From: an uncultured virus (IMG/VR IMGVR_UViG_3300010353_000982)
Lineage: Duplodnaviria > Heunggongvirae > Uroviricota > Caudoviricetes
DNA length: 20,000 nucleotides
IMG/VR virus record: IMGVR_UViG_3300010353_000982
Direction: 5' to 3' (one strand)
Shown here in pieces: positions 6,009-20,000 of the stretch. Position 1 is the first letter of the stretch; every line of letters begins with the position of its first letter. A program made the position numbers and the translations under genes. Below the pieces are notes generated by a model. The model saw only the letters and a list, made by a program, of their open reading frames with translations, made no database searches and had not been told where the DNA came from.

Positions 6009-6126
6009 ACTCGGAAAACCTTTTTTTCACGTCTGATAGTATTAAATTATCGGGTTGAAAAGCAAATATATCTGATGTCGACCACGTTTTTTGGTGGCGA
6101 CACAAGGGGAAGAGGAGGTTAACAAG

Positions 6127-7306: not shown

Positions 7307-7377
7307 TTCGGAGGAAACTTCGGAGGAAACTTCGGAGGAAACTTCGGAGGAAACTTCGGAGGAAAGTTCGGAAAAAG
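7307..7377. repeat. 12-bp tandem repeat TTCGGAGGAAAC x5 plus a degenerate sixth copy
   Basis: Units start at 7307, 7319, 7331, 7343, 7355 (last base G) and 7367 (partial). Confidence 0.95.
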
Positions 7378-7481
7378 CCTCATATTCGCGTTTTAAGCTT
7401 CATGAAAATCAAGGTAAGAGAATAGTGCAGCAGCGGGCAGAAAGTGCCACAGAATCAATCCTACCCCCCGCCAAATTGATG

Positions 7482-8111: not shown

Positions 8112-9042
8112 ATAACACTATACGTTGCCATAGTATATAGTTATATTGGAAAAAAATTTTTTTTTTGGAAATGCGAAAATCAAGGTAATGAAAGCAACCA
8201 AAAACGATTCACGGAGGAAACCCCCACTTACATGCACCATCATATACAAAAACACGAGGTAAGGTGTATCAAAGTAGGGGTGCTCCCTCGGGCATTGCCA
8301 CAAATACGGCCATATAAGATTTGAAAAATGTCTTGTCGAGAATTTTCACTAGGCGCGACGACAGAAATATGCCCCCCGCTTCGAGATCTGGGCAAAATAA
8401 GCCCGTAAACTCGTCCGATTGTCACAGCGACGCCGCCAGGACTTCTAATTATCCTCATGAATATAAATCGTTTTCTCGACGACGCCCCGACGTCCACGTC
8501 GTCACCCCCGAAGCGTCTGACATGTGTCTGCCACCTGTCTGCCACTTGTCTGACACGCCCTATGTGCCGCACCCACTCCGTGCCCCACGACGGACACGTC
8601 GCCATCACGACGTCAAGATAAGATTTCGTTTTCATTTATATACCTTCCGCCGCGCCGCCCGCCTGACAGCGCATCCCCCCGCGCCCCTCGTTGCCACGAC
8701 GTAATCCTGGCCCGACGTAAATGACGACGATAACGACGGGACGTCGACACTATAGCACCCGACGTGCCACACCTCGCCCCCCGTCGACATTTTCTCGCCC
8801 CCACGACGTCACCGACGTCCCGCCCCTCGGCCTGTTCTCTTACCTGCAGACGACAACCACGTCGCCACCGACGGAAAACCCCCCGATTTCACCACGATTT
8901 CCACGTCGACACGACGTTACGACGATGGTTCGCCGTTGCTACGACGTTGTCCGTCGTTCGACGAAATAACGTCTGAACGCACGCCTGACCACGACGTTAA
9001 ATTTTCAAAACCTTCACGACGGAGACACGACGAGATACGACG

Positions 9043-9172
9043 CATTTCTTAATTCGAATGACTTCTTAAAAAACTAAAAAGCCATTTTTGACCCTTCTTA
9101 ATAATAATAATAATAATAATATATATATATAGTAAAATATGACTTCTTAGTTTCTTAAGAAGTAGAAGAAAC
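9043..9172. other. Putative replication origin core (AT-rich unwinding element with short repeats)
   Basis: (AAT)n then (AT)n run at ~9099-9131. Flanked by ATGACTTCTTA x2, further TTCTTA copies and the palindrome TTCTTAAGAA. Embedded in GC-rich non-coding DNA between divergent gene blocks. Confidence 0.5.
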
Positions 9173-9308
9173 CGAGAAATGCGACGTACACCGACGTTAA
9201 AATCAGGGGGATGCTATTTTCGAGATTACGTCGTGCTCCGACGTTAGCGGTTCAATTTGGGCGTTTTTGGCTAAAATAACGTTAAATCTTATCTCGTTAT
9301 CTTGTTAT

Positions 9309-9341
9309 CCCGACGACTTCCCGACGACTTCCCGACGACTT
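9309..9341. repeat. 11-bp tandem repeat CCCGACGACTT x3
   Basis: Exact copies at 9309, 9320 and 9331. Confidence 0.9.
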
Positions 9342-9979
9342 CCCCTCGTTATCTCGACGATTTCCCGACATCTCGACGTCCACTCGACGTTGACTTTTCC
9401 ACTGGAAATCCCGCTTTATGTCGATGGAAACCCCATATTGGCGTTTTAAGGCCAAAAAACCCCCTCCGCATACTATTGTCCGAAAAAAGAGGTAAAGCCA
9501 GCCAGAAACGCGGGAACCTACCTTAAAATCGATTTTAGGCCGATATCGTCACTTCATACCGACAACCCCTTTGGCCCGACGTGGCCCCGACGTAAAATCG
9601 CTCCCCACTCCGCTGCCCGCTCCGACGTGGCGACCCTGCCCGCCTCCCCCGTATCCAGACGCTGCCGATGCTCTTTACCTCGTGGCTCCCTCGTGGCTCG
9701 ACTGACGGCCCCATCCCTCCGCAAACCCAGCGCCCCGACGTGAAGCGCGCCCCGCCCCAACGACGGCCCCAGCCGAAGGCGACGACTGAAGCCCCTCGTT
9801 TTCGTCGTTCCGTCGTGACTTCCTCGTTACCGACGTTAAAATGGCATTTTCAACGACGGAGCAACGCCTGGAGCCTTTCCGTCGTGGTCTCGACTGAAGC
9901 CTTAACGCCTGACTCCCTCGGCAACTTTCCGACGTGAAGCCCGACGGCAACGTCTGAAACGACCCTCGCCCCGACGTAA

Positions 9980-9995
9980 GCAAACCTTTATCATG
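9980..9995 (+). promoter_or_regulatory. Putative BRE/TATA promoter of the rightward (early) operon
   Basis: GCAAACCTTTATCATG, similar to the AACCTTTATA element at 5201. Followed by a T-rich segment, predicting a start near 10015. Confidence 0.5.
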
Positions 9996-10014
9996 TCAAA
10001 GGTCAATTTTGTTT

Positions 10015-10680
10015 TGTGAAATCGCAGGGAAAAACGCCAAACGGCGCGATGCCCTGACGGTGACACGACTGATGCACGTCGTAAACAACAGGGGATAAGG
10101 CGGAGCGTTTACGACGGAAGGATTACAGGGCTCCAAGGGTTTCCTCGTTTTTTAGGAGGTTCAGACGTAAAACCGACGGGCCGTCTCTGACGGACACCAC
10201 CTGATTCCCCCGACGTATACGGCGTATGAGGTATGGGTTTTTGCTAAAGATTCTTCAGTCGATGGCGACGGCGTGGCATTCGAAGGTAACGGAGAACACC
10301 ACGGCGGATGAACTATCAGTTTACGAGACGGACACGATGAGATGTCCGACGGGGAATCGCATAGTCTTCAGTCGTTTTCCTCTCCGTATAAGTCGTTAAA
10401 CGTCACAAAAAATCCCTGACGGTGACAACGATGAAGGAATGCCATTACCTTCGGAGTCACCCGTCGAAAAAAAGTCATACCGACAGGCGAAATTTCCGAC
10501 GGCGCTTCAACCTTTCCAACCACGGAAGACACGGAGTGCCCGACGAAGGAACGTGATTTTTGAGTCGTAAAAATGGAAAAAATCTTGAATTTACGAGGGG
10601 GCCGTCGAGGCTACCCCGTGCAAATTTACTCGTGGTGATAAAGTCGGCCACGTCGAGAAATCGGCGTTGTCGGCGTCAAC
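10015..10680 (+). ncRNA. Putative large structured leader / ncRNA
   Basis: No credible ORF. Many complementary segments, e.g. CGTCGTAAAC/GTTTACGACG, GCCCTG/CAGGGC, GATTCCCC/GGGGAATC, ACGGAGA/TCTCCGT. Confidence 0.45.
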
Positions 10681-10694
10681 TAGGAGTGAAAAAA

Positions 10695-11372
10695 ATGGCA
10701 ATCAATTTCGATTTTTCGACTGAAGTGCAGGAGAAAATCACGGCGGGCCACGTTAGGGCTCACGATGAAAAGTTCCGCGTCACCACGTCGAAAATGACGG
10801 GAAAACTTGCAGGCATCGTCGGAATTTCGACGAACCCCCTCGCAAATCCCTTCTGTAAATCGATGCAGAACGTCGAGGGAGCCGTCTGTCAGAATTGTTA
10901 CTCGTGCAGGATGCTTTTATCGTCGAGAAAGCAGGCGATAACGGCGTGGACGGCGAATACCGTCGCCCTGTCCGACGACAATCTGTCAGATGAAATGCTC
11001 CCGTCGATACCCGACGGCGCTTATGTGCGGTTCAATCCACACGGCGAGATTACGTCGGAGGCAATGGTGCGGAATTTCTTCCGTATTGCACGGAGGAACC
11101 CGACGGCGCACTTCGTTCTCTTTACGAAGAGATACGAACTTGTCCGTCGTTGCGCCGACGAGAAGCCCTCAAACGTGGCCCTCGTTGCCTCGGCGTATCA
11201 CCTCAATAAGCCCGTCGATAGCGTCGAAGGCTTCGACACGGTTTTCCGTGTCTTTACGCCTGAATACGCCGATTCTCACGGCGTAAAAATCAACTGCCTC
11301 CTCCGTTGCAACGACTGCAAAAAGTGCTGGTCTACCGACGGTGGACAGGTGATTAATGAGAGACTCAAATAA
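10695..11372 (+). CDS. GP88-like (phage gene product 88) Cys-cluster protein, possibly radical-SAM-related
   Basis: GGAGTGA RBS before the ATG at 10695; 225 aa. C-x10-C-x2-CY, VRF..HGE, LFTKR and a C-terminal C-x3-C-x2-C-x2-CW. Confidence 0.6.
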   Translation: MAINFDFSTEVQEKITAGHVRAHDEKFRVTTSKMTGKLAGIVGISTNPLANPFCKSMQNVEGAVCQNCYSCRMLLSSRKQAITAWTANTVALSDDNLSDEMLPSIPDGAYVRFNPHGEITSEAMVRNFFRIARRNPTAHFVLFTKRYELVRRCADEKPSNVALVASAYHLNKPVDSVEGFDTVFRVFTPEYADSHGVKINCLLRCNDCKKCWSTDGGQVINERLK

Positions 11373-11376
11373 CCTT

Positions 11377-11420
11377 TTTCCCGACGCTTTCAGGCGTTGA
11401 AGTTCAATCTTCACGGGGAA
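11377..11420 (+). ncRNA. tRNA-mimic element, class A copy 1
   Basis: 7-bp stem TTTCCCG/CGGGGAA, hairpin ACGC-TTTCAG-GCGT, T-arm TGAAG-TTCAAT-CTTCA. Confidence 0.7.
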
Positions 11421-11463
11421 TTCCCGACGAGACCGTCGAGTCTCCGAGGGCGGAGTTAAAAAA

Positions 11464-11799
11464 ATGGCTACAGACGCAAACAACGACGCAGTCGTCGATA
11501 TGTCGGTTGAATATGACAATGTGAAGTTTCTTCACGTCGAAAAGAACGACGATAAAGTTAAATTTGTCGTCGAATTTTACGACGGTGGAAAGACAGGGCC
11601 ACATTACGTCAATAAAATCGACTGGATAACCATTTTAACGGCGGCTGCCGTCGGAAGTTCGACGCTTACCATCCACGGTAACGAGGCGCACTACACGGGC
11701 TACTCGTCGTATGGCGGTAAAGTTGTCGTCGAGGTAAAGGAACTTGAACAGTCGAAAATGCGGTTTGTTAACGTCGAAATGTCGTTACCAAACCACTAA
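11464..11799 (+). CDS. Hypothetical protein
   Basis: 111 aa; GGAG RBS plus an A-rich spacer. Confidence 0.7.
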   Translation: MATDANNDAVVDMSVEYDNVKFLHVEKNDDKVKFVVEFYDGGKTGPHYVNKIDWITILTAAAVGSSTLTIHGNEAHYTGYSSYGGKVVVEVKELEQSKMRFVNVEMSLPNH

Positions 11800-11801
11800 T
11801 T

Positions 11802-11844
11802 TTTCTCGGCGCTATCAGGCGTTAAGTTCAATCTTTCCGAGAAA
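11802..11844 (+). ncRNA. tRNA-mimic element, class A copy 2
   Basis: Stem TTTCTCGG/CCGAGAAA, hairpin CGC-TATCAG-GCG, arm AAG-TTCAAT-CTT. Confidence 0.7.
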
Positions 11845-11888
11845 TTCCCGAGGAGCGCTCGACGTTCCGACGGAGTGAGTGATAAAAA

Positions 11889-12146
11889 ATGGCTGAAAAT
11901 ACGACGGTGCTCGACGCACTGGAGAAGTTGTATGTTTCTTCGACGAAATACGGCGCGCCACAATGCGCTTACCTCCGTTATGACGTCAGAAAACACGACT
12001 GGTATTGTGACTATCGTAACTCTCGACGCGACCGATATCAGGACGTCTGTGTTTACGACGACAAGACAGTCGAAAATCTCCGTAAAATCGAGCAAACCTG
12101 CCCCTGCTGGCACGACGATATTCTCGACGGTGATAACGATGATTGA
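11889..12146 (+). CDS. Cys-rich hypothetical protein, paralog A
   Basis: 85 aa with RBS; shares a motif with the next ORF. Confidence 0.7.
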   Translation: MAENTTVLDALEKLYVSSTKYGAPQCAYLRYDVRKHDWYCDYRNSRRDRYQDVCVYDDKTVENLRKIEQTCPCWHDDILDGDNDD

Positions 12147-12315
12147 ATGCGAATATCTCCGTTTTGATTACGTCGAGCGGGAATGGTATTGTGCGTTTCG
12201 TCTGACCCGACGTGATAAGTTAAATTACGTCTGTGTTTGCGACGATGACGACGTAAAGCAGTTGATTGCCGACGAGATTTACTGCCCCTGCTGGCGTAGT
12301 CTCGACGATGAATAA
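12139..12315 (+). CDS. Cys-rich hypothetical protein, paralog B
   Basis: 58 aa from the ATG at 12139 (GGTGA RBS); MIECEYLRFD...CPCW. Confidence 0.7.
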   Translation: MIECEYLRFDYVEREWYCAFRLTRRDKLNYVCVCDDDDVKQLIADEIYCPCWRSLDDE

Positions 12316-12318
12316 ATT

Positions 12319-12362
12319 TTTCAGTCGCGCTTATGGCGTAAAGTTCAATCTTTCGGCTGAAA
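12319..12362 (+). ncRNA. tRNA-mimic element, class A copy 3
   Basis: Stem TTTCAGTCG/CGGCTGAAA, hairpin CGC-TTATG-GCG, arm AAAG-TTCAAT-CTTT. Confidence 0.7.
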
Positions 12363-12397
12363 TCCCCCGAGGAAACGACGGGGTTTAGGTGAAAAAA

Positions 12398-12559
12398 ATG
12401 GCTTTTGGAATAAACTCAATTTGCCGTCTATATCTCGACGGTGAAGTATTTCACGTATGCTGCAATCGTGAAGTAGTAGAATCGATGAAATCCCGACTGG
12501 TTCAGGCGGGTATTTCGGCGGAACGCCTTCGAGTTACGGAGAGAATGCCGAATATCTGA
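12398..12559 (+). CDS. Hypothetical 53-aa protein
   Basis: AGGTGA RBS; MAFGINSICRLYLDGEVFHVCC... Confidence 0.6.
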   Translation: MAFGINSICRLYLDGEVFHVCCNREVVESMKSRLVQAGISAERLRVTERMPNI

Positions 12560-12741
12560 ACCAATTTTTCGACGGAGCGGAATCTCACCGCCGACAACCG
12601 ACGGTGGGACGCATCTGACGGAGAATCGACGGAAAATCCTGGAGAACGACGGATACCGACGACTTCACGCACCATGCGCGGAAAAAAAAAGCAGCCCAGT
12701 TTGGCCCCAGTTGGGGTATTTGGGCAGGAATTGAGTAGAAA

Positions 12742-12951
12742 ATGCAATCAGTCCAGTTTATGCACCGCGACGGGCATTGTGAAGACTTCCTCGAATTTAC
12801 GGAGAGTCTTGGTTTCGATGCCAGTGCAGCACAGTCAGACGAAGATGGCATGGACTGTATCGACAACGCCCTCGAATGGCTCAACAGAGCACACGATGGC
12901 GTGCGGTATATTCTCGCCGAGTTTGGGGTGGTGGTAGCAGTTCCCGCGTAA
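12742..12951 (+). CDS. Hypothetical acidic protein
   Basis: 69 aa, D/E-rich, in operon orientation. Confidence 0.55.
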   Translation: MQSVQFMHRDGHCEDFLEFTESLGFDASAAQSDEDGMDCIDNALEWLNRAHDGVRYILAEFGVVVAVPA

Positions 12952-13099
12952 CGACGATTTGCTACCTGAACCCGCCCCTCACTCCTAGTTCATGCTGATA
13001 CTCAACGACGGGAAGAGAAATTCATTCCCGTCTGATACCATAGTTTTTTATCCCGTAACGTCGTAAGGGTGCGTCCCTGCGGCGCGGAGATAGTTAACA

Positions 13100-13399
13100 A
13101 TGTTTATCGTATGTCCGTCAGTCCCATCGACTGAAATGGCAATGGAAGTTTTGCACCGTGCCCAGCGGTGTGTTAAACTGTTGGCTGACGTTTCTGCGTC
13201 GGAACAGTTAGACCCTTACCTCGAAAATGAGTTAATACGAGGGTGGGACGAAGCAGAACTTAAAGACCCGATACTGCGCGACCTGTTCCCACGACTGTAT
13301 CTTGAATCAGATTTTTTTCTGATTTACGACTTCGGTCTCGACGGTTCAGTGCGGAAGATAACGCCGATGTCACGGCGGTTATTGTATCAGGAGAAATAA
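13100..13399 (+). CDS. Hypothetical protein
   Basis: 99 aa; GGAG RBS following a GGGTGCGTCCC hairpin. Confidence 0.6.
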   Translation: MFIVCPSVPSTEMAMEVLHRAQRCVKLLADVSASEQLDPYLENELIRGWDEAELKDPILRDLFPRLYLESDFFLIYDFGLDGSVRKITPMSRRLLYQEK

Positions 13400-13401
13400 C
13401 G

Positions 13402-13491
13402 ATGGATATCGAGTTTTTCTTCTATATAATGCTCGGCTGTATTATCGGTGGTCTCGCCGTGAGCGCATATCTGTTCATTCAGACGTTATGA
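13402..13491 (+). CDS. 29-aa membrane peptide
   Basis: GGAG RBS; MDIEFFFYIMLGCIIGGLAVSAYLFIQTL. Confidence 0.5.
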   Translation: MDIEFFFYIMLGCIIGGLAVSAYLFIQTL

Positions 13492-13502
13492 GGTGACAAA
13501 AA

Positions 13503-13712
13503 ATGTATGCGAAGGTTAATTTCAAGTCGAAGAAAGCCTTAAAACAGGCGGTCTCCGACGGGCAGCGCATTGGGATTTATCAAGTTGGCCCCTTCGGAGG
13601 TAATGAGCCCAGCAACGGGACAGTTTACCTCGAAGGCCCATGGTATCCCGAGCCCCATCGCTGGTATGCAACGGCGGAAGTTAAAGACGGCATCATCGTA
13701 AAAGTGAAATAA
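13503..13712 (+). CDS. Conserved small phage protein of unknown function
   Basis: GAGGTGA RBS. NFKSKKALK.AV...LEGP.YPEPH.WYA resembles a small phage protein family. Confidence 0.7.
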   Translation: MYAKVNFKSKKALKQAVSDGQRIGIYQVGPFGGNEPSNGTVYLEGPWYPEPHRWYATAEVKDGIIVKVK

Positions 13713-13910
13713 ATGTCCGTCGATAATTGCCCGTTCTGCGGGGAACCGTTGATTTTCGAGGACGAATACATCTTCGGAAATCACGTCGCTGGCATGTTTT
13801 ATGACGACGACAGCGAATTTCTAACGGTTCGCGCCCGCTGCCCGAGGTGCAAAGCAAATTTCCACCTGAAGTATCGCTTTAATGACTACGAGGTAACTGG
13901 CTACGATTGA
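13713..13910 (+). CDS. Zinc-ribbon protein
   Basis: CPFC...CPRC. Confidence 0.65.
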   Translation: MSVDNCPFCGEPLIFEDEYIFGNHVAGMFYDDDSEFLTVRARCPRCKANFHLKYRFNDYEVTGYD

Positions 13911-13944
13911 CGGCGTAGAGCAGGTTCGAATCCTGCAGCCAGTT
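13895..13944 (+). ncRNA. tRNA-mimic element, class B
   Basis: Stem AACTGGCT/AGCCAGTT stacked on a canonical T-arm GCAGG-TTCGAAT-CCTGC. The 5' strand overlaps the upstream ORF end. Confidence 0.75.
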
Positions 13945-14053
13945 TTCGGCGGGTAGCCGACCAGTTAACGAGAGAGAAACGGAAAGCGGGGATGACCCGT
14001 GAGAGTCAAGTTCCCTCGTGGACTGGCAACGGCTTCCGTCGTTAGGTGAAAAA

Positions 14054-14266
14054 ATGACAGTTTACAGAGTGACAACAACGTATGGTCTCGCTAGTCATAC
14101 GGAGAACATGGATGGCCCATACCTCGAAGAGTGGATTAAGTATCTCAAGGAGAGACACGAGGTCTGCGAGGTAACACGGTATCCAGACTCGACGTGTGTC
14201 GATATCAAGATTGACAGGCCCATCAAGGAGATGCGAGATGTCCTTATGAACCTTCTCAATTCTTAA
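14054..14266 (+). CDS. Hypothetical protein
   Basis: AGGTGA RBS before the ATG at 14054; 70 aa. Confidence 0.65.
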   Translation: MTVYRVTTTYGLASHTENMDGPYLEEWIKYLKERHEVCEVTRYPDSTCVDIKIDRPIKEMRDVLMNLLNS

Positions 14267-14331
14267 GACTTGGCCCTTTTGGCCCTAATCTGGCCCTTTT
14301 ACCTTGAGTTAACCAATGAAGGAGAATTTCG

Positions 14332-14508
14332 ATGAAGACTAAATGTAACATCTGCGGTTTTGAGATGGAGTTCGACGCGCAGCAAAACAGCCTACAATGC
14401 GGCAAAACTCTCATCATCTGTCCCATCTGTAAAAATCCACTTGTGAAGTGTGATTGCAAAATTGTCGTCGAGACAATAATGCTCAATGCAACCAATCCCG
14501 ACGACTGA
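14332..14508 (+). CDS. Zinc-ribbon protein, 58 aa
   Basis: GGAG RBS; MKTKCNICG...CPICK. Confidence 0.6.
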   Translation: MKTKCNICGFEMEFDAQQNSLQCGKTLIICPICKNPLVKCDCKIVVETIMLNATNPDD

Positions 14509-14531
14509 AACAAGAAGAAAGACGATACGAT

Positions 14532-14591
14532 GGACGGTCTCGCGGCCCTGTTTGGGTAGCCGAGAAAGGGGTGCAATTCCCCTTACCGTTT
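14532..14591 (+). ncRNA. tRNA-mimic element, class B with variant T-loop
   Basis: Stem GGACGGT/ACCGTTT, side hairpin CTCG...CGAG, arm AAGGGG-TGCAATT-CCCCTT. Confidence 0.6.
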
Positions 14592-14621
14592 TCCCTCGAA
14601 GCGAGGGCAGGAGTTAAAACA

Positions 14622-14825
14622 ATGGCAGAAAAAAAGTTTAAGCAGTGCCTTCTGAAAATCATGCGTTCTATCGACGAGAGACTCGACGAGAGAATTAGTG
14701 AGTCCAGTGAGTATCTGTTTTTCTTCCCCAACGGAGGAGATGCAGATTATCATGAAGGACGTGTAGAGGCGCTGGAAGTTACTCGTCAGCAGATTCAAAA
14801 AATCTTTGCCGAGGAGATGAAGTAA
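14622..14825 (+). CDS. Hypothetical helical protein
   Basis: GGAG RBS before the ATG at 14622. Confidence 0.65.
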   Translation: MAEKKFKQCLLKIMRSIDERLDERISESSEYLFFFPNGGDADYHEGRVEALEVTRQQIQKIFAEEMK

Positions 14826-15221
14826 GTGACAACAAGGGCAAATATCACCGTAATGGAAGACGGAGATATTATGATTTTCTATCAGCATTCTGATGGATAT
14901 CCCGAGGGAGTTATGCCAATGCTCCGATGGTTTGTAGACTCAATGAGAGTCGGCGCTATCAGGAGAGACATTGAACTTGCCTCTGGTTGGCTTGTCATTT
15001 ACGGCAGAAGAAAGATGCTGACAGACGTTCCAGCCACCGATTCACAAAGCGTTGGATACGTTATTCCCGCTGTGCATATCCACGGTGATATAGAGTTCTA
15101 TTACACCGTCGATATCAAGACGCTTACCGTCAAGGCATACGAGGTAACAGCAATTCCACCACGGAGGTTGTCAGAACTTCCGCAGAAATACATGAGACTT
15201 GTCGAGGTATATCATGGTTGA
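14826..15221 (+). CDS. Conserved phage protein with a Y-x-H-x-DGYP motif
   Basis: MTTRANI...FYQHSDGYPEGV; GAGGAG RBS. Confidence 0.7.
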   Translation: MTTRANITVMEDGDIMIFYQHSDGYPEGVMPMLRWFVDSMRVGAIRRDIELASGWLVIYGRRKMLTDVPATDSQSVGYVIPAVHIHGDIEFYYTVDIKTLTVKAYEVTAIPPRRLSELPQKYMRLVEVYHG

Positions 15222-15444
15222 AATTAAATGCACAAGATGCAAGAAAATCTTCGGATTCATGAAGGAAGAGCGCCCCGAGCATCTTAAAGTTATGTGCCCG
15301 TGGTGCGGCTCTATGCAGGATGTTGGAATAAAACGGGTTGGTGGCGCTGGGAGAAAACCAGCGGAGAAAAAAGAGACCGACCCGATGAAATTAATTCCAA
15401 AGAAAATCTCAAGACCACGAGGTAGACCGAGGAAGAAGCGGTAG
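15214..15444 (+). CDS. Zinc-ribbon protein with a C-terminal AT-hook
   Basis: CTRC...CPWC and RPRGRPRKK; GAGGT RBS. Confidence 0.65.
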   Translation: MVEIKCTRCKKIFGFMKEERPEHLKVMCPWCGSMQDVGIKRVGGAGRKPAEKKETDPMKLIPKKISRPRGRPRKKR

Positions 15445-15478
15445 TGGCACGCTGGGGAGTTCGAGTCTCCCCGCCGCT
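15437..15478 (+). ncRNA. tRNA-mimic element, class B
   Basis: Stem AGCGGT/GCCGCT stacked on GGGGAG-TTCGAGT-CTCCCC; overlaps the upstream stop codon. Confidence 0.7.
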
Positions 15479-15508
15479 ATTCCCCCAAAAAGGGGAAGTG
15501 ATTAAAAA

Positions 15509-15874
15509 ATGGCAACATATTGTAAGTTTTGTGGAAAACTTCTGCAGTTCGATGAGGCAGAAATCTGCCCGTCGTGCGGCATGAGGCTTCATGAACCAGT
15601 GACAAAAGAAAAGGAACCAAAGCCCTATGTCGAATACAAGAGCCCCATTCTCGCCGCGATTCTCTCGTGGCTGTTCATTGGGGTTGGTCAGATTTACGTC
15701 GGACAACTTGGACGTGGGCTGACTATTATGTTTGTCGGTTTCCTATTCGTAATTTCGATACTCGTGTTTGGTCTTCTTGGCCTGACTCTTTTGCTGGTGC
15801 TGGATATTTGGTCGATTTTCGACGCCTACAGTCTGGCAAAGGAATACAACGAGGATATGCGGTATGAAGACTGA
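15509..15874 (+). CDS. Zinc-ribbon + TM2 domain membrane protein
   Basis: CKFCG...CPSCG, then KSPILAAILSWLFIGVGQIYVGQLGRGL (TM2 motif). Confidence 0.8.
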   Translation: MATYCKFCGKLLQFDEAEICPSCGMRLHEPVTKEKEPKPYVEYKSPILAAILSWLFIGVGQIYVGQLGRGLTIMFVGFLFVISILVFGLLGLTLLLVLDIWSIFDAYSLAKEYNEDMRYED

Positions 15875-16052
15875 CGTCCTGATGAGTTATATCAACGACG
15901 CACATGACAACATTGAGTTGCTGTGCGACGAGGTAAGACACACGGACATGACTCAAGAAGAGCGAGATGTTATCTACGACAAAGCGGAGAGGGCTCAAGA
16001 CATGCTCTCCGAGATAAAGCAGCATTGCGTTCTCCTCTTTCTTCATCAATGA
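15864..16052 (+). CDS. Hypothetical protein
   Basis: 62 aa, coupled to the previous gene. Confidence 0.55.
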   Translation: MKTDVLMSYINDAHDNIELLCDEVRHTDMTQEERDVIYDKAERAQDMLSEIKQHCVLLFLHQ

Positions 16053-16091
16053 GCCGAAACCTTAAAGTCGTCAGGAGACGATATATTAATC

Positions 16092-16325
16092 ATGGTAAGA
16101 AAAAATATTGTCGTCGAAGAGAAAACGAGACAACGGATTAGGAACGTCATCGACGCACTCGATGGCCGTATCCTCGGATTGAATGGACAGATACCCGCCA
16201 AGCCTCCGATTAAAGGCACACCTGCTGCGGAAACCGTGGCAATTGTGATGGCAAAGCGGGAAATTGTGATGGAACTTCGTGAACTTCTCCTAAATGAATT
16301 TCACGACGATTTAATCCCACAGTAA
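16092..16325 (+). CDS. Hypothetical protein
   Basis: 77 aa; GGAG RBS. Confidence 0.6.
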   Translation: MVRKNIVVEEKTRQRIRNVIDALDGRILGLNGQIPAKPPIKGTPAAETVAIVMAKREIVMELRELLLNEFHDDLIPQ

Positions 16326-16363
16326 CCAGAGTGGTTCAGGCGGTTCGACTCCGCCACTGGTTA
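16323..16363 (+). ncRNA. tRNA-mimic element, class B
   Basis: Stem TAACCAG/CTGGTTA, 9-nt linker, T-arm GGCGG-TTCGACT-CCGCC; begins at the stop codon. Confidence 0.75.
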
Positions 16364-16392
16364 TCCGCCCGAAGAGGGCAGGAAATAAAAAA

Positions 16393-16677
16393 ATGGTTTC
16401 AATCGATGAAATGATTGAATTTCTCGAAGATGCACGGAATATCGGGACGGACACCGAAGACGCTGACGATAATATCGACAGTGTTATCAGTGACCTGAAC
16501 ACCCTGCAGAATGATATCGATGATCTCCTCGAAGGAATTAGTGATACACTCCTCGAAATGGAGGACGATGAAAAAGATGTTATTTTTATTGAAGATTCAT
16601 TATATAACGAGGGATACATCGATGCACTCGTAAGCACAAAGGAGTCGATACTCCGTATTTTCAATCGAGAGGAATGA
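16393..16677 (+). CDS. Highly acidic helical protein (DNA-mimic candidate)
   Basis: 94 aa with about 30 D/E versus 5 K/R by hand count. Confidence 0.7.
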   Translation: MVSIDEMIEFLEDARNIGTDTEDADDNIDSVISDLNTLQNDIDDLLEGISDTLLEMEDDEKDVIFIEDSLYNEGYIDALVSTKESILRIFNREE

Positions 16678-16809
16678 ATGACCGCTGGAAGTTGCAGTGC
16701 AGACGGTTGCAAAAAGAATTCTGTCATTAACCTGAATGGTAAAGGTTATTGCAAGCAATGCTATCTGAAAATTGTTGATGGGGAGAAAAAATCTCCCCCG
16801 AAACCCTGA
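16678..16809 (+). CDS. Small zinc-finger protein, 43 aa
   Basis: MTAGSCSADGC...YCKQCY; GAGG RBS. Confidence 0.5.
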   Translation: MTAGSCSADGCKKNSVINLNGKGYCKQCYLKIVDGEKKSPPKP

Positions 16810-16962
16810 AGCCGTTCCGAGTATGCGCTCGACGGCAGGAGTTGGTTATTTCTTAACAGGTTGTATTGACACTACCATACCATCCCAGAGGAGAAACTGA
16901 CCTCATTCTCCTCTTTTGCCCTGAAGCCGAAAAGGGTGCGTCCCTCTCGGCAGGTGTAAAAA

Positions 16963-17877
16963 ATGGCATTATTTAAAAACTTCAATTCGATGGAAAGCAT
17001 CGACTCAATCCGCTCGCGCACCGACTCTCTGGCAACAGCCAGCAAAGTAAAGGTAGCCGAGATTGTTGAGCAGCCCGACGGAACTATCAAGGGTTTCCGC
17101 CCGATAAAGAAGCGCTTCGGTATCAAGAACGAGCGCACGGGTGAGATTGCTGACTTTGCATCACCAGTTTACTCCGTCCTGCAGCATTCGGACGCCGTTA
17201 ACATGGTGCTCGGCTCCCTGCAGGAGCACGGTATTGAAGCCCGTGGTTTCATGAAGGAGTGGAACAACGGTGTTGCAGTCGAAGTTTTCCTCGATAATGT
17301 TCTCTTACCGACAGAGGGAAATGAGTTTGTCGCTCATTCTCTCCGTATACCTGATGGTAAGGACGGTATCCAGATGGGTATCCGCTTCGTGAATTCCTAT
17401 GACAAGTCCAGTGGCTTCCGTGGCTATGGCTTCGGATGGAGACTGGCCTGCTCGAATGGAATGTTCCTTCGGAGTGTGCTCCCAGAGATGCAGTTTTCCA
17501 TCAGGCACACGGGCCAAGTTGTCAGCAAAGTCAGTGATAAAATCTACGGTGCAGTGCGCCGCCTGGTTATGAACCGTGGTGCGCTTATCGCAGTGATTGT
17601 TGATGCCCAGAAGGAAAAAGTGTCCTTCAATACGGAGAAAGAGATGGTTCTTGCCCTCTCTGGATACGTTGGCTCCGAAAGGCGCGCCGAGGTAATTCTC
17701 GATAACCGCGCTGCTCACGACGTTGGCCTTGAAACAACTCGGTGGAATCTTTATAATCTCCTTACCGATTATGCAACTCACACGGAACTATCCGTGTCGA
17801 TGTATGACAGAATCCAGAATGGTGCGGAGAGGATTCTCACCAGCCCCGTTATTTTGCCAGAGGCGGTTTCAGCATGA
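16963..17877 (+). CDS. DUF932-family protein
   Basis: 304 aa. Y.VLQH, NSYDKS..F...G.WRLACSNGM, IRHTG and T.WNLYN.LT motifs of DUF932/DUF945 proteins; AGGTG RBS. Confidence 0.8.
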   Translation: MALFKNFNSMESIDSIRSRTDSLATASKVKVAEIVEQPDGTIKGFRPIKKRFGIKNERTGEIADFASPVYSVLQHSDAVNMVLGSLQEHGIEARGFMKEWNNGVAVEVFLDNVLLPTEGNEFVAHSLRIPDGKDGIQMGIRFVNSYDKSSGFRGYGFGWRLACSNGMFLRSVLPEMQFSIRHTGQVVSKVSDKIYGAVRRLVMNRGALIAVIVDAQKEKVSFNTEKEMVLALSGYVGSERRAEVILDNRAAHDVGLETTRWNLYNLLTDYATHTELSVSMYDRIQNGAERILTSPVILPEAVSA

Positions 17878-18074
17878 GTAAATCTCAATACGCCAAGTAT
17901 ATGTGCCGAGGGAGTATCGAAAAGGGGTTATGTGATACCCCTTGTTGTTACTTCCACAAGTTACGCGATGGATTCAAGGCAGAGTATTATACTCCGCCGA
18001 TAAAATGTATCTGTTACGATGGTCGAACGCCAGTTTTCGAGCGTGTAGACCGATATACTCCAAATGGGATTTAA
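17874..18074 (+). CDS. Cys-rich hypothetical protein
   Basis: 66 aa, ATGA overlap with the DUF932 gene. Confidence 0.55.
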   Translation: MSKSQYAKYMCRGSIEKGLCDTPCCYFHKLRDGFKAEYYTPPIKCICYDGRTPVFERVDRYTPNGI

Positions 18075-18132
18075 TCCCACATCTTTTTGAAAGTCGCACG
18101 GGTGCGTCCCGACGACCAAAAGGTGAAAACCT

Positions 18133-18522
18133 ATGAAAGTAAACAAAAAAGTAATGGCAGAACTGGTAAAAAATTTCCAGAGAAATCGTAATACTGTTAC
18201 GATGAGATATGACGACTTTATCACCGACATGAAGAATGCGAAAACAGTCGAAGAAGTTATGAGACTGAAGAAACTGTTTCTTCGTAAACTCGTCATGGAT
18301 ATTCCGTTATACTCTTCCGAGTGCTATTTCTGTATATATCACGACGAGAAATGTTCTAACTGTCTGTATGCAAAGAAGCATGGTGTGTGTGGTAAGACCC
18401 AAGAACACACGAGGCAGAAGGATAAACTTCCGACGTGGGATAAAATCAGGAATATTCGGAATCATCTCGAAGAGACTATCGACAAAGAATATTTTAGAGA
18501 AGGTGAGAATTATGGCGACTGA
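18133..18522 (+). CDS. Hypothetical protein with a Cys cluster
   Basis: AGGTGA RBS; CYFC...CSNC...C. Confidence 0.7.
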   Translation: MKVNKKVMAELVKNFQRNRNTVTMRYDDFITDMKNAKTVEEVMRLKKLFLRKLVMDIPLYSSECYFCIYHDEKCSNCLYAKKHGVCGKTQEHTRQKDKLPTWDKIRNIRNHLEETIDKEYFREGENYGD

Positions 18523-18847
18523 ACGCCGAGTAAAGCGTGTCTACAACTACAAGAGTGGTCTTGTCGTCATGGTTTTCGAGGATGGAAAAGATGCAATTCT
18601 TTTTGACCCTCCGAGACTGACTCTCTGGATGTTTGAGAAGGCCGATGATGCTTTCAAGTATGCTGTTTCAAACAAAATCCCAATGGGTGACTCTATACAT
18701 ATTACAGAACGATTACCCGTGCCTCCAGAATCGATTTCTAGGGGGGTAGGATTGCCAGCAGCAGAGGTTAGCAGCAAAACTGGGCGACAGTCCATAGCGA
18801 CCATGAACTTCATTCCAATCGAATCTACAGCCCTCATTTTGGACTAA
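18512..18847 (+). CDS. Hypothetical protein
   Basis: AGGTGA RBS before the ATG at 18512; 111 aa. Confidence 0.65.
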   Translation: MATERRVKRVYNYKSGLVVMVFEDGKDAILFDPPRLTLWMFEKADDAFKYAVSNKIPMGDSIHITERLPVPPESISRGVGLPAAEVSSKTGRQSIATMNFIPIESTALILD

Positions 18848-18869
18848 TACGACGGTGAATTAATGCGAG

Positions 18870-18908
18870 GTCGAGAAAGGAATAGCAGGTTCGACTCCTG
18901 CACTCGAC
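18870..18908 (+). ncRNA. tRNA-mimic element, class B
   Basis: Stem GTCGAG/CTCGAC, 9-nt linker, T-arm GCAGG-TTCGACT-CCTGC. Confidence 0.75.
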
Positions 18909-18951
18909 ATGGGCGAACACCCGATGGTTAGTAGCCCGAGAAGTGAAAGAA

Positions 18952-19416
18952 ATGGCAACAAAGAATCAGAACGATATGGTTTGCGTCCGTTGCGGATGCG
19001 AAATCAGTATAGTCGAAGAACCATCTCGCGGATATGTGCGTGGGACTACTTATTGTCCTATCTGCAAAGACCCAATGACACAGCGTCTGTATCTCAAAAA
19101 GATGATTACTGTGGATAATATCTGTGAGAAGTTCGGAATGCAGCAGACTTATTCCGTAAGGGCTTCGATAAGGGAAAAGATGTATGCTGCAGAGAAAATG
19201 TTCAGGAACGGTTACTGCAAGAAAGCAGGAAAGATTGGTGATACCGATGTGTATACCGTTATCTCCGAGGACAAGCAGAAGAGTTATGTCGTCACTGTGC
19301 GTGAGGGCTTCTACAATTGTAATTGTCCTGACCAGTTGTTCCGTCATCACGTCTGCAAGCACATCATTACCGTAATGTTCCACAGAGAACGGGAAGGGAT
19401 AAATCCCTTTAAGTAA
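18952..19416 (+). CDS. Zinc-ribbon + SWIM zinc-finger protein
   Basis: CVRC...CPIC at the N-terminus; Y.V......CNCPD......CKH (SWIM) at the C-terminus. Confidence 0.75.
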   Translation: MATKNQNDMVCVRCGCEISIVEEPSRGYVRGTTYCPICKDPMTQRLYLKKMITVDNICEKFGMQQTYSVRASIREKMYAAEKMFRNGYCKKAGKIGDTDVYTVISEDKQKSYVVTVREGFYNCNCPDQLFRHHVCKHIITVMFHREREGINPFK

Positions 19417-19418
19417 TC

Positions 19419-19688
19419 ATGACGAACAAGTCTTTGTGGATTGACCCAAAAGACTGCCGAACATGTCCAGATTGTTGTTGTGCTGGGTGCAGTCACTTTC
19501 GAGTTATCGACGGTATAAATACGTGTCTTATCTACGATACCCGAGATAAAATGGAAGACTGTGACTTTTCTTTTTGTATGAATGCTTCCCTCGAAAAAGA
19601 CGAGGGAGGTTTTCACTGCCCATTGAAGAGAAGCACGCCGCTAGAACATCCAGTTCAAGACAATAGGTCTAACTCTCCAGACCACTAA
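19419..19688 (+). CDS. Cys-rich hypothetical protein
   Basis: 89 aa with multiple CxxC-like motifs. Confidence 0.6.
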   Translation: MTNKSLWIDPKDCRTCPDCCCAGCSHFRVIDGINTCLIYDTRDKMEDCDFSFCMNASLEKDEGGFHCPLKRSTPLEHPVQDNRSNSPDH

Positions 19689-19799
19689 TTTTTTCCCGTA
19701 AAGTCTGACCAGTCGAGGGTGTTTGTGAAAAACGAGCATTACTTCGGCTGGCAGGAGCGGAGAAAAAAATGGCAAAGGCCGCATGGAGGAGTGATTGAA

Positions 19800-19961
19800 A
19801 TGGCAAAACCAATAGAATTTGAATTACATCTACATGGTGAAGATGCTCGGGCATTTCAGGAATATATGGATAGCCCTGCAGACAAATCCTCTCCAGAAGC
19901 ACGCGATATTATGAGGGAAGCGGTTGGACTTTCGAAACGTCTTGACCGTATTCTCTTATGA
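19800..19961 (+). CDS. Small protein resembling methanogen antitoxin-like proteins
   Basis: GGAGTGA RBS; MAKPIEFELHLHGEDARAFQEYMDSP. Confidence 0.5.
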   Translation: MAKPIEFELHLHGEDARAFQEYMDSPADKSSPEARDIMREAVGLSKRLDRILL

Positions 19962-20000
19962 AAATACCTTTTTCTGAGTTAAAATTTAAAATTCTTGATG

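What the first reader, a model, noticed from the sequence alone, without database searches (positions are those of the whole stretch)
8389..20000. Sharp loss of GATC and AGCT sites right of ~8400: restriction-avoiding, probably first-entering region
Seen (hand count): about 30 GATC and over 20 AGCT in 1-8388. In the remaining 11.6 kb I found one GATC (16522) and no AGCT, where about 45 of each are expected at uniform composition. GTAC also looks depleted (one seen at ~9185). Known: early-entering DNA of phages such as T7 and T5 is under restriction-avoidance pressure and carries anti-defence genes. Inference: the physical genome end or entry point lies near 8400-8700, and later DNA is protected by an early gene product.
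Basis: partly seen in the sequence, partly recalled or inferred. Interest (0 to 1): 0.75.

Follow-up and report, generated by a model that had tools for sequence, protein, structure and literature searches.

The report
Restriction-site-free leading block of a phage
In an uncultured phage of about 66 kb, the cutting sites GATC, AGCT and GTAC stop abruptly at one point and return only gradually further along, as if that DNA must work in the cell before the phage is protected from host restriction enzymes.

Summary
Positions 1-8388 hold 32 GATC, 23 AGCT and 12 GTAC. Positions 8389-20000 hold 1, 0 and 1, against Markov expectations of 44, 20 and 30.

The window is a tailed phage. Late head genes lie on the minus strand. 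A 2.2-kb non-coding leader dense in CGACG follows, then about 24 small plus-strand early ORFs.

- **Selection on the DNA.** Synonymous shuffles of the early genes expect 25, 17 and 20 sites.
- **Selection still acting.** Substitutions in five 97-98% identical strains create no site where 2-6 are expected per pair.
- **Conserved.** A divergent relative (G005 contigs C128 and C136) shows the same pattern.
- **Polar.** There is one sharp edge at about 8390. To the right, GATC returns after about 12.5 kb, and AGCT and GTAC after about 19-21 kb. All three then rise slowly around the map. CCGG and CTCAG are absent throughout.

The best reading is restriction-site avoidance concentrated on first-entering DNA, as shown experimentally for T5-like phages and Murciavirus.

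Not shown:
- the physical terminus (no raw reads; contig ends do not cluster);
- any protecting gene;
- the host.

The scan noted similar early-block avoidance before, on other DNA.

The parts
150..5141 (-). Late head and head-tail genes: major capsid 2102-2950, cement-like 2964-3875, protease/scaffold-like 3888-5141. GATC and AGCT occur here at normal density.
   Evidence: Pfam Linocin_M18 at 1.9e-25 and PHROG major head protein. Synonymous shuffle: GATC 23 against 24.4, AGCT 18 against 23.0, GTAC 9 against 21.7, CCGG 0 against 21.1.
5236..7190 (+). Small plus-strand ORFs of unknown function that diverge from the late operon and still carry the sites.
   Evidence: ORF list. Sites at 5319-7145. 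Strain-variable indel at 6501-6678.
7307..7378 (.). Tandem array of a 12-bp unit (TTCGGAGGAAAC), about 6 copies.
   Evidence: the repeat finder family D1. Contigs of runs X1 and X2 break at 7336.
7482..8111 (-). HNH / endonuclease VII-like gene, a mobile insertion that some strains lack.
   Evidence: PHROG 1035 at 4.7e-29. Absent in L023 and L024. Joints 7492>8146 and 7492>8151 in runs X2 and X8.
8356..8630 (.). The sharp edge: last GATC at 8385, first CGACG of the dense zone at 8356, maximum-likelihood change point at 8390.
8356..10694 (+). Non-coding leader, C-rich on the plus strand and packed with CGACG / CCGACGT / CACGACG words. It has an AT-rich core at 9061-9163: an inverted repeat around (TAA)n(TA)n.
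   Evidence: Sequence. 49 CGACG in 8389-10560. Repeat families D2-D6 and inverted repeat I1. The cumulative GC-skew minimum lies at about 10 kb. A leader of about 3 kb with the same words sits at the same place in the divergent relative C128.
8356..13000 (.). CGACG/CGTCG-dense zone of about 5 kb that runs from the leader into the first genes.
   Evidence: 85 CGACG and 34 CGTCG in 8-13 kb, against 1-3 per kb elsewhere. In the early genes CGACG+CGTCG is 63 against 26.6 and CGTCGA/TCGACG is 30 against 9.1 in synonymous shuffles. The same zone lies at 2-7 kb of C128.
10695..11372 (+). First early gene, of the GP88 / DUF5131-like family, Cys-rich.
   Evidence: Pfam GP88 at 2.1e-12 and DUF5131 at 4e-4. 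Atlas GP88 clusters. 60% identical homologue in C128.
10695..20000 (+). Array of about 24 small plus-strand early ORFs that is almost free of sites. The only GATC is at 16522.
   Evidence: ORFs. Synonymous shuffle: GATC 1 against 24.9, AGCT 0 against 16.7, GTAC 0 against 19.9, CCGG 0 against 17.6.
16393..16677 (+). ORF of 94 aa with net charge -25 and pI 4.1. It is a candidate DNA mimic by charge only.
   Evidence: AlphaFold2 gives an all-helical model with pLDDT 77.6. No PDB fold match at E <= 0.001.
16963..17877 (+). DUF932-family protein, missing in some strains.
   Evidence: Pfam DUF932 at 2.4e-8. Joint 16961>17792 in run X4. Homologue in C128.

Best explanation
The window comes from a tailed phage of about 66 kb found in sludge and digester metagenomes. 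Its genome seems to be delivered, or needed, in a fixed order that starts at about 8.4 kb and runs rightward. The order is the CGACG-dense non-coding leader, then early genes, middle genes, terminase and portal, and last the leftward late operon, whose promoter lies about 3 kb from the far side of the edge.

DNA that is in the cell before the phage's counter-measures act is exposed to host type II enzymes that cut GATC, AGCT and GTAC. Selection removes every such site from that DNA. Its strength decays with distance. GATC is tolerated after about 12.5 kb. AGCT and GTAC are tolerated after about 19-21 kb and then rise only slowly. CCGG and CTCAG are never tolerated; CTAG is scarce in this phage and absent in the relative.

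Shown here:
- the step itself;
- that it acts at the DNA level;
- that the selection is ongoing;
- that the pattern is conserved in a divergent relative;
- that it is polar and nested.

Inferred:
- that restriction enzymes are the agent;
- that order of entry is the cause;
- that the edge is a genome end or entry start;
- that an early product gives the later protection.
For: 1. **DNA-level selection.** In 24 early ORFs (7539 nt), synonymous shuffles expect GATC 24.9, AGCT 16.7 and GTAC 19.9; observed are 1, 0 and 0. In 9 late genes GATC is 23 against 24.4 and AGCT 18 against 23.0.
2. **Selection still acting.** Substitutions between the window and five 97-98% identical relatives create 0 sites in 8389-20000, where random placement of the same substitutions gives 1.9-5.7 per pair (fraction of simulations at or below the observed count: 0.004-0.15). 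A sixth relative, L022, has only 7 substitutions (0.4 expected) and is uninformative. In the late region one relative (L020) gained 6 sites and lost 1.
3. **Alternative cassettes are also depleted.** Three alternative early cassettes in relatives (2482 bp) hold 2 GATC, 0 AGCT and 0 GTAC.
4. **Independent replicate.** In a relative whose major capsid protein is 78% and GP88 60% identical, contig C128 has GATC 0 in 13.5 kb (about 50 expected). AGCT is 0 for 18.2 kb and occurs once before the terminase gene. GTAC is 0 for 26.9 kb. The zone starts at the syntenic leader. The relative's structural contig C136 carries 116, 49 and 58 sites in 35.3 kb.
5. **Polarity.** There is one common sharp edge. 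The right edges differ: GATC at window-equivalent 20.9 kb, GTAC at 28.0 kb and AGCT at 29.1 kb. Observed/expected ratios from synonymous shuffles rise along the map. GATC.04.61.73.73.73, 1.0, 1.0. AGCT: 0, 0.16.44.54.62.73. Spearman rho for AGCT over 15 bins is 0.77, P = 0.0008.
6. **One genome, one host range.** CCGG is 0 in all 49.5 kb of the composite map.
7. **Experimental precedent.** T5-like phages are restricted by type I and II systems only when sites lie in the first-step-transfer DNA (PMC10644984, abstract and passages read). Murciaviruses are restricted only when the type I motif lies in the first-injected region (PMC12455610, abstract and Discussion read).
Against: - **No terminus was mapped.** All 24 runs listed are contigs, not raw reads.
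- **Contig ends do not cluster.** Ends of relatives near the edge fall at window 5729, 6415 and 7212, not at one point.
- **No long terminal repeat.** Contig k-mer depths of runs X1 and X2 show no doubled stretch in the window. A long T5-like terminal repeat is therefore unlikely. A short repeat or cohesive ends cannot be told apart.
- **No recognised counter-measure.** No anti-restriction gene, methyltransferase, single-subunit RNA polymerase or T5 A1/A2 homologue was found in the 49.5 kb examined or in C128. About 17 kb of the genome was not seen.
- **The AGCT and GTAC edges could be tied to a module instead of a distance.** In both phages these edges fall near the start of the terminase module: within 1.2 kb upstream of TerL in G002, and inside TerL in C128 for AGCT. 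Such an edge could be tied to the gene module and not to distance.
- **Legacy islands exist in this clade.** In the relative G001 the sites cluster in high-GC islands of recently acquired DNA.
- **Host unknown.** No R-M enzyme of matching specificity has been tied to a host.
Confidence: 0.6

Rival explanations
1. Mosaic legacy. The early and middle modules evolved for a long time in phages whose hosts cut GATC, AGCT and GTAC. The late module was acquired from phages that were not under that pressure. On this reading the step is a recombination joint and not a positional effect.
For: Modules are exchanged in this clade. The capsid gene of G001 is 91% identical in protein to the window's, in a genome of 34% GC with no DNA match to window 5200-20000. 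In G001 the AGCT, GTAC and CCGG sites cluster in four high-GC islands, one of which holds a TnpB-type transposase gene. The early region is a hotspot of cassette replacement.
Against: - Substitutions among close strains still avoid creating sites in the block but not in the late region.
- CCGG and CTCAG are absent from both sides, so both sides have long shared the same hosts.
- The right edges differ by motif, and the densities recover as a gradient and not as a second step.
- A divergent relative keeps the same layout.
Confidence: 0.12
2. All the DNA enters at once, but only the early and middle region must stay uncut. Cuts in late genes would be repaired or out-replicated once early functions are made, so selection follows the time of need and not the time of entry.
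For: The AGCT and GTAC edges fall near the start of the terminase (late) module in both phages, at different distances of about 21 and 24 kb. Relatives encode recombination and repair nucleases: Cas4-like PD-(D/E)XK and ERCC4.
Against: - It does not explain why CCGG and CTCAG are not tolerated in late genes.
- It does not explain why GATC returns inside a helicase gene in the middle of the plus-strand array.
- It does not explain why late genes themselves show a graded recovery.
- Linear fragments would be exposed to host exonucleases.
Confidence: 0.13
3. The agent is a nuclease made by the phage itself early in infection to degrade host DNA at these short palindromes. Only phage DNA present at that time must lack the sites. 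This is the idea Davison proposed for T5 A1.
For: The same positional logic fits the data. The idea is in print for T5 (10.1101/866236, passages read). The early block holds many unassigned ORFs.
Against: No nuclease domain was recognised among the early ORFs at the thresholds used. Three different specificities with different extents would be needed. Later-entering DNA would still need protection.
Confidence: 0.07
4. Reverse polarity, strictly like T5. DNA would enter from the right towards 8.4 kb, and the non-coding repeat-rich leader would be an injection stop signal at the inner end of the first-step DNA.
For: In T5 and BF23 a long non-coding repeat region lies at the border between first-step and second-step DNA (10.1101/866236 and PMC10644984, passages read). 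Here the sharp edge coincides with such a region.
Against: The other edges are not sharp, differ by motif, and lie inside genes (GATC inside the SNF2 helicase gene). Strength is greatest next to the leader and decays away from it. GATC-bearing DNA would then enter before GATC-free DNA.
Confidence: 0.08

Closest known systems
First-step-transfer (pre-early) DNA of T5-like phages (Tequintavirus: T5, BF23)
   Same: A contiguous leading block of about 10 kb must be free of restriction sites, while sites elsewhere are tolerated. The block holds many small genes of unknown function. A long non-coding, repeat-rich region lies at its border, and an HNH gene is inserted nearby in some strains (PMC10644984 and 10.1101/866236, passages read).
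   Different: No A1, A2 or dmp homologues. No sign of a terminal repeat of about 10 kb in contig depth. The repeats are CGACG words, not DnaA boxes. The non-coding region sits where avoidance is strongest. Avoidance is nested by motif and decays gradually, where T5 has a single block. The virion genes are unrelated: an encapsulin-like capsid protein, and a terminase closest to that of archaeal virus ANMV-1 at 36.5%.
Early-injected region of Autographiviridae (T7; Murciavirus, PMC12455610)
   Same: Restriction acts only on motifs in the first-injected DNA. That region is highly variable between strains. Its genes are read in the direction of entry.
   Different: The published case concerns one type I motif, while here three 4-bp type II-like palindromes are absent. 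No single-subunit RNA polymerase or Ocr was found in the DNA examined. The late operon is on the opposite strand. The genome of about 66 kb has siphovirus-type tail genes: a tube protein and a tape measure.
Genome-wide restriction-site avoidance in phages
   Same: CCGG and CTCAG are absent from every part examined, the classical pattern. CTAG is scarce in this phage and 0 in both contigs of the relative.
   Different: GATC, AGCT and GTAC are avoided only in a polar sub-genomic block.
Leading regions of conjugative plasmids
   Same: First-entering DNA that is depleted in restriction targets and rich in anti-defence genes. This is as cited in the Discussion of PMC12455610; I did not read the primary papers.
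   Different: Plasmid DNA enters single-stranded from an oriT. This is a phage.

Membership tests
Sub-genomic (leading-region) restriction-site avoidance | Site depletion is confined to one contiguous block while the rest of the genome carries the sites. | tested here: met
   Counts of 32, 23 and 12 against 1, 0 and 1. Composite map of 49.5 kb.
Sub-genomic (leading-region) restriction-site avoidance | The depletion is selected on the DNA and is not a by-product of protein or base composition. | tested here: met
   Synonymous shuffles give z of -5.0 to -5.8 in early genes and about 0 for GATC in late genes. No new sites arise among strains.
Sub-genomic (leading-region) restriction-site avoidance | The block is the first DNA to enter the cell (fixed ends, polar entry). 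| not testable with these tools
   Only contigs of public runs were available, not raw reads. A polar gradient is indirect support.
Sub-genomic (leading-region) restriction-site avoidance | The host carries enzymes that cut the avoided sites, and sites outside the block are tolerated in vivo. | not testable with these tools
   The host is unknown. The DpnII and HpaII nuclease families were not found in MAG G005, which holds the relative; the MAG's completeness is not given.
T5-like first-step-transfer system | Pre-early genes A1, A2 and dmp. | tested here: not met
   No such PHROG or Pfam hits among the 37 window ORFs scanned.
T5-like first-step-transfer system | Long (about 10 kb) terminal direct repeat that holds the block. 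| tested here: inconclusive
   Contig k-mer depths of 15-18 (X1) and 26-41 (X2) across the window show no doubled stretch. Contig depth is a weak measure.
T5-like first-step-transfer system | Long non-coding repeat-rich region at the border of the block. | tested here: met
   Window 8356-10694 is non-coding and carries repeat families D2-D6. The repeats are of a different kind, and the region lies at the sharp edge.
T7-like transcription-coupled entry | Phage-encoded single-subunit RNA polymerase and Ocr-type DNA mimic among the first genes. | tested here: not met
   No hits in the window, G002, G004 or C128. About 17 kb of the genome was not seen. The acidic 94-aa ORF has no Ocr-like fold match.

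The most novel reading that the evidence does not exclude
The nested site-free zones would be a written record of slow, polar genome delivery in a phage lineage unrelated to T5 and T7. GATC is absent for about 12.5 kb, AGCT and GTAC for about 20 kb, and CCGG and CTCAG everywhere. Each zone length would mark when one host nuclease is neutralised. The conserved 2-3 kb leader, saturated with CGACG words that spill into the first genes, would be a new kind of cis element that holds, paces or shields the entering end. The host may be an unusual one: a wall-less Bacillota member or an archaeon.
Probability: 0.25. Interest if true: 0.75.

Novelty: new variant of a known kind. Interest (0 to 1): 0.62.

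Why it matters
Position-dependent restriction has been shown experimentally only in T5-like phages and, in 2025, in one genus of T7-like phages. The authors of that 2025 paper predicted it would shape the leading regions of many phages.

This lineage shows the signature in raw sequence, very cleanly and in two divergent genomes. Two features go beyond the published cases: nested extents per motif, and a decaying gradient.

If the reading holds, it has three uses:
- **Genome ends and entry direction.** Motif maps alone could locate them in uncultured phages.
- **Order of neutralisation.** They could rank the order in which host nucleases are disarmed.
- **Where to look for genes.** They point to the 10.7-20 kb ORF array as a place to look for inhibitors of type II enzymes, of which few are known.

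It also warns that whole-genome counts of site avoidance understate selection.

Tried and rejected
- **Named phages.** Megablast of the whole window against the INPHARED phage collection found no match.
- **Own genome.** No genome is held for this window.
- **Exact pattern in IMG/VR.** A scan with an exact window pattern gave 0 matches.
- **GP88 as a single query in IMG/VR.** No relative was found.
- **The 66,255-bp metagenome contig behind L024.** It could not be read beyond its first 14,180 bases. Its other end, and about 17 kb of the genome, stayed unseen.
- **Laying four runs on the window.** The runs are contigs only, so no molecule starts or ends were reported (table 6: none). Parts without cover are not evidence.
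- **Contig ends as termini.** Rejected, because they fall at 5729, 6415 and 7212.
- **Joining the two contigs of the relative.** The tail of C136 and the head of C128 do not overlap.
- **Promoter and terminator scan.** Sigma-70-like promoters: 23 found against 18.9 +/- 4.2 in shuffles. Terminator-like sites: 21 against 17.3 +/- 4.5. Neither is enriched.
- **RNA genes.** No tRNA was found in the window or in nine relative loci. No Rfam family matched at E <= 0.1.
- **Host search.** The window was searched as DNA against 401 genomes of the class of G005, of which 2 were not scored. Apart from G005 itself, the 48 other genomes with a match gave only short matches at E 1e-5 to 1e-2, many in AT-rich stretches. 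I do not read them as spacers.
- **Nuclease families in G005.** DpnII and HpaII were not found; the MAG's completeness is not given.
- **CGACG as a host Chi-like word.** It is not over-represented in 65 kb of G005 contigs (O/E 0.94).
- **Acidic 94-aa ORF.** A single-sequence AlphaFold2 model gave no PDB match at E <= 0.001.
- **Literature.** 'DUF932' together with 'anti-restriction' returned 0 papers. 'DUF5131' returned one paper, seen in the search listing only, which I take to file the family under the radical SAM superfamily.

Full report
**1. The observation.**
Window 1-8388 holds 32 GATC, 23 AGCT and 12 GTAC. Window 8389-20000 holds one GATC (16522), no AGCT and one GTAC (9186).

Base composition predicts 45 of each on the right. 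A maximal-order Markov model predicts 44.2, 19.8 and 29.5. The Poisson P values are 3e-18, 3e-9 and 5e-12. The pooled maximum-likelihood change point is 8390, with support 8050-8630.

Other palindromes show no step (CATG 34 and 33, TGCA 44 and 51). CCGG is 0 on both sides, where 19 and 40 are expected. TCGA is enriched on the right (123).

The junction is not an assembly artefact. An independent metagenome contig, L023, spans window 4401-12488. Contigs of two public runs bridge 7336-9315 and 7463-9338.

**2. What the DNA is.**
The window is part of a tailed phage.
- **Late genes.** On the minus strand lie a head module: an encapsulin/HK97-like major capsid protein at 2102-2950, a cement-like protein and a protease/scaffold-like protein.
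- **Small genes and HNH.** Then come small plus-strand ORFs (5236-7190) and an HNH/endonuclease VII gene (7482-8111, minus strand).
- **Leader and early genes.** From about 8356 to 10694 there is no credible gene. After that come about 24 small plus-strand ORFs. Recognisable among them are only a GP88/DUF5131-like first gene, a DUF932 protein, a SWIM-finger protein and zinc ribbons.
- **No close named relative.** No named phage is similar at the DNA level.

Related contigs extend the map.
- G003 and G004 (IMG/VR) match window 1-7212 and 1-5729 at 100% and 99% identity. G004 continues through tail tube and tape-measure genes.
- G002 starts at window 12835 and runs about 15 kb past the window's right end. 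It passes through an SNF2 helicase, more small ORFs and a short minus-strand cluster with a thymidylate-synthase-like gene. It then reaches an intein-bearing large terminase and a portal.
- CheckV figures (49,384 bp at 75% and 22,331 bp at 34%) and a 66,255-bp metagenome contig put the genome at about 66 kb. I could examine 49.5 kb of it as a composite; about 17 kb stayed unseen.
- The phage occurs in activated-sludge, wastewater and anaerobic-digester runs of 13 studies.

**3. The depletion is selected on the DNA.**
I shuffled synonymous codons within the 24 early ORFs, keeping proteins and codon usage. This gives GATC 24.9, AGCT 16.7, GTAC 19.9 and CCGG 17.6. Observed are 1, 0, 0 and 0 (z from -5.0 to -5.8).

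In nine late genes GATC is 23 against 24.4 and AGCT 18 against 23.0. GTAC is 9 against 21.7, a partial avoidance. CCGG is 0 against 21.1.

The word CTCAG/CTGAG is also absent from both gene sets (0 against 10.5 and 0 against 11.9).

**4. The selection is still acting.**
I took the substitutions that separate the window from each of six close relatives and re-placed them at random positions of the same base.
- In 8389-20000 the real substitutions create no GATC, AGCT or GTAC in any of the six.
- For five relatives (57-129 substitutions each) random placement creates 1.9-5.7 sites per pair. The fraction of simulations at or below the observed count is 0.004, 0.014, 0.014, 0.026 and 0.148.
- The sixth relative, L022, has only 7 substitutions (0.4 expected) and is uninformative.
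- These pairs share ancestry and are not independent.
- In the late region one relative (L020) gained 6 sites and lost 1; two others gained none, with about 1 expected.
- Three alternative cassettes that replace window sequence in relatives (2482 bp in all) hold 2 GATC, no AGCT and no GTAC.

**5. An independent replicate.**
A metagenome-assembled genome, G005 (record title: uncultured Acholeplasma sp.), holds two contigs of a divergent relative. Its major capsid protein is 78% and its GP88 60% identical to the window's; most of its DNA is not alignable.

Contig C128, turned to the window's orientation, carries these parts in order:
- an HNH-like fragment;
- about 3 kb of non-coding leader;
- GP88, DUF932 and SWIM genes;
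- a thymidylate-synthase-like gene;
- terminase and portal.

| Motif | Site-free stretch in C128 | Notes |
|---|---|---|
| GATC | 1686-15174 (13.5 kb) | about 50 expected |
| AGCT | 1461-19623 | then one site until 25739, inside the terminase gene |
| GTAC | 524 to the contig end (26.9 kb) | |
| CCGG, CTAG, CTCAG | whole contig | |

The same phage's structural contig C136 (35.3 kb) has 116 GATC, 49 AGCT and 58 GTAC. So the pattern is kept across a large sequence distance and partly different gene content.

**6. The pattern is polar.**
The three motifs share one sharp left edge. Their right edges differ (in G002):

| Motif | Returns at (window-equivalent) | Location |
|---|---|---|
| GATC | about 20.9 kb | inside the SNF2 helicase gene |
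| GTAC | about 28.0 kb | inside the thymidylate-synthase-like gene of the minus-strand cluster |
| AGCT | about 29.1 kb | about 80 bp before the terminase start |

After that the densities recover only gradually around the map. Observed/expected ratios from synonymous shuffles, going rightward from the edge:

| Region | GATC | AGCT | GTAC |
|---|---|---|---|
| Early genes | .04 | 0 | 0 |
| Middle genes | .61 | 0 | 0 |
| Minus-strand cluster | .73 | .16 | .20 |
| Terminase-portal | .73 | .44 | .16 |
| Distal tail | .73 | .54 | .21 |
| Tube region | 1.0 | .62 | .66 |
| Head genes | 1.0 | .73 | .42 |

In one search three tail genes of G004 that contain N were left out. That leaves 2 of 3 genes in the distal-tail set and 3 of 5 in the tube set.

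Over 15 composition-normalised 2-kb bins, AGCT rises with rank distance (Spearman 0.77, P = 0.0008). For GTAC the figures are 0.49 and P = 0.06.

A recombination joint between modules would give two sharp edges shared by all motifs. What is seen is one sharp edge and a decay. That is what a process with a start point and a direction would leave.

**7. The leader.**
The depleted zone opens with 2.2 kb of non-coding DNA that is C-rich on the plus strand.
- Region 8389-10560 holds 49 CGACG, often as CCGACGT or CACGACG.
- It has an AT-rich core, where an inverted repeat flanks (TAA)n(TA)n at 9061-9163.
- The cumulative GC-skew minimum lies at about 10 kb.
- The word density continues into the first genes: 85 CGACG and 34 CGTCG lie in 8-13 kb, against 1-3 per kb elsewhere.
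- In the early genes CGACG plus CGTCG is 63 against 26.6, and CGTCGA/TCGACG is 30 against 9.1, in synonymous shuffles.
- The relative C128 has the same word-dense zone at 2-7 kb, starting at the edge.

What the zone does is unknown. It could be protein-binding sites that hold or pace the entering end. It could be an origin with iterons. It could be a shield against exonucleases. The word is not over-represented in 65 kb of the MAG that holds the relative (O/E 0.94), which gives no support to a host Chi-like role.

**8. Mechanism.**
The best reading (confidence about 0.6) is position-dependent restriction. DNA that is present in the cell, or needed, before the phage's counter-measures act must lack host type II sites, and pressure falls with distance from the start.

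The gene layout fits this.
- All genes from 10.7 to about 27 kb, and then terminase and portal, point away from the edge.
- The leftward late operon starts at 5141, about 3 kb from the far side of the edge. On a linear genome that opens at about 8.2-8.4 kb, its promoter would be among the last DNA to arrive.

There is experimental precedent.
- **T5-like phages.** They resist type I and II systems unless sites lie in the first-step-transfer DNA (PMC10644984, abstract and passages). T5 has a long non-coding repeat region at the border of that DNA (10.1101/866236, passages).
- **Murciavirus.** A type I motif matters only in the first-injected region (PMC12455610, abstract and Discussion). That paper also predicts the effect should not exist in headful-packaging phages.

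**9. What is not shown.**
- **The physical end.** No raw reads could be laid. Contig ends of relatives near the edge do not coincide (5729, 6415, 7212). Contig k-mer depth shows no doubled segment, which argues weakly against a long terminal repeat.
- **A protecting gene.** Pfam and PHROG scans of the window, G002, G004 and C128 found no methyltransferase above threshold. They also found no Ocr, ArdA, A1/A2 or single-subunit RNA polymerase. The 94-aa ORF at 16393-16677 has net charge -25 and folds as a helical bundle (pLDDT 77.6), but it has no fold match. It is a candidate DNA mimic by charge alone.
- **The host.**
  - The terminase is closest to that of archaeal virus ANMV-1 (36.5% over 57% of the query).
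  - The relative G001 carries PolB, an RFC-like clamp loader and an ERCC4 nuclease.
  - The other relative was binned with a Bacillota-like MAG whose contigs under-represent AGCT (.61), GTAC (.42), CCGG (.46) and CTAG (.33) and over-represent TCGA and GATC.
  - None of this settles the host.

**10. Rivals.**
Mosaic legacy is a real phenomenon in this clade. G001 avoids AGCT, GTAC, CCGG and CTAG almost genome-wide, apart from high-GC islands that include a TnpB element and the 91%-identical capsid gene. But it does not explain the ongoing selection, the shared CCGG and CTCAG avoidance, the nested edges or the replicate.

Three further readings share the positional logic and cannot be excluded without experiments:
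- a model in which only the early and middle region must stay intact;
- a phage-nuclease model;
- a reverse-polarity model that is strictly T5-like.

The fact that AGCT returns near the start of the terminase module in both phages, at different distances, keeps a module-linked component open.

**11. Novelty and score.**
The principle is known. The scan noted similar early-block avoidance before on other DNA (e1-5739397, not tested here). New here:
- a very clean case in an unrelated, uncultured lineage;
- three 4-bp palindromes with nested extents and a decaying gradient;
- conservation across divergent relatives;
- an associated CGACG-dense leader.

I rate it a new variant of a known kind, with interest 0.62.

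Noticed in passing
window 13924-13932, 15459-15467, 16343-16351, 18889-18897 (plus strand): Four early intergenic regions carry hairpins that look like tRNA T-arms: a 5-bp GC stem with a TTCGAAT, TTCGAGT or TTCGACT loop. All are on the plus strand. No tRNA or Rfam family is called there. GTTCGANTC occurs 4 times against 1.35 expected; 7 of 200 shuffles reach 4. They may be RNA processing or stability signals.
   Followed up: partly
window 11375-11469, 11800-11894, about 12330-12388: A repeated element of about 95 bp (79% identity) lies upstream of three consecutive early genes. Each copy ends in a GGAG-type ribosome-binding site followed by an A-run and ATG/GTG. It could be a repeated early promoter or leader.
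   Followed up: no
window 7482-8111, with flanks 7404-7417 and 8175-8188: The HNH gene is present or absent among strains and runs. It is flanked by a 14-nt direct repeat, GAAAATCAAGGTAA.
   Followed up: partly
whole window, G002, G003, G004, C128: CCGG is absent from all of these. CTCAG/CTGAG is absent from both of the window's gene sets and from C128. In C136 CCGG occurs only in a 2-kb island of 48% GC (12 sites at 21-23 kb). TCGA is over-represented 1.8-2.7 fold.
   Followed up: partly
L017-L019 (G001, 49,384 bp, 34% GC): This relative has a 91%-identical capsid protein in an otherwise unalignable, low-GC genome. AGCT, GTAC, CCGG and CTAG are nearly absent except in four high-GC islands. 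One island holds a TnpB/IS605-type gene and one holds the capsid gene. This looks like recent imports that have not yet lost their sites.
   Followed up: partly
L050-L054 (IMG/VR contigs, GP88 31% identical): In another phage lineage CGCG, GCGC, GGCC and TCGA are all 0. In 4 of the 5 loci, CCGG (6-8 sites in the first 7-8 kb) stops near a divergent-transcription point about 2-3 kb before the GP88 gene. It then stays at 0 to the locus end, 4 to 13.6 kb further on. This may be a second case of the same kind of step.
   Followed up: partly
L016:4065-6503 (G002) and L018:3019-6216 (G001): The large terminase of the window's phage and the ribonucleotide reductase of G001 each carry a LAGLIDADG-type intein.
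   Followed up: no
window 12573-14750, 13087-14314, 16961-17792: The early block is a hotspot of cassette loss and replacement between samples.
   Followed up: partly
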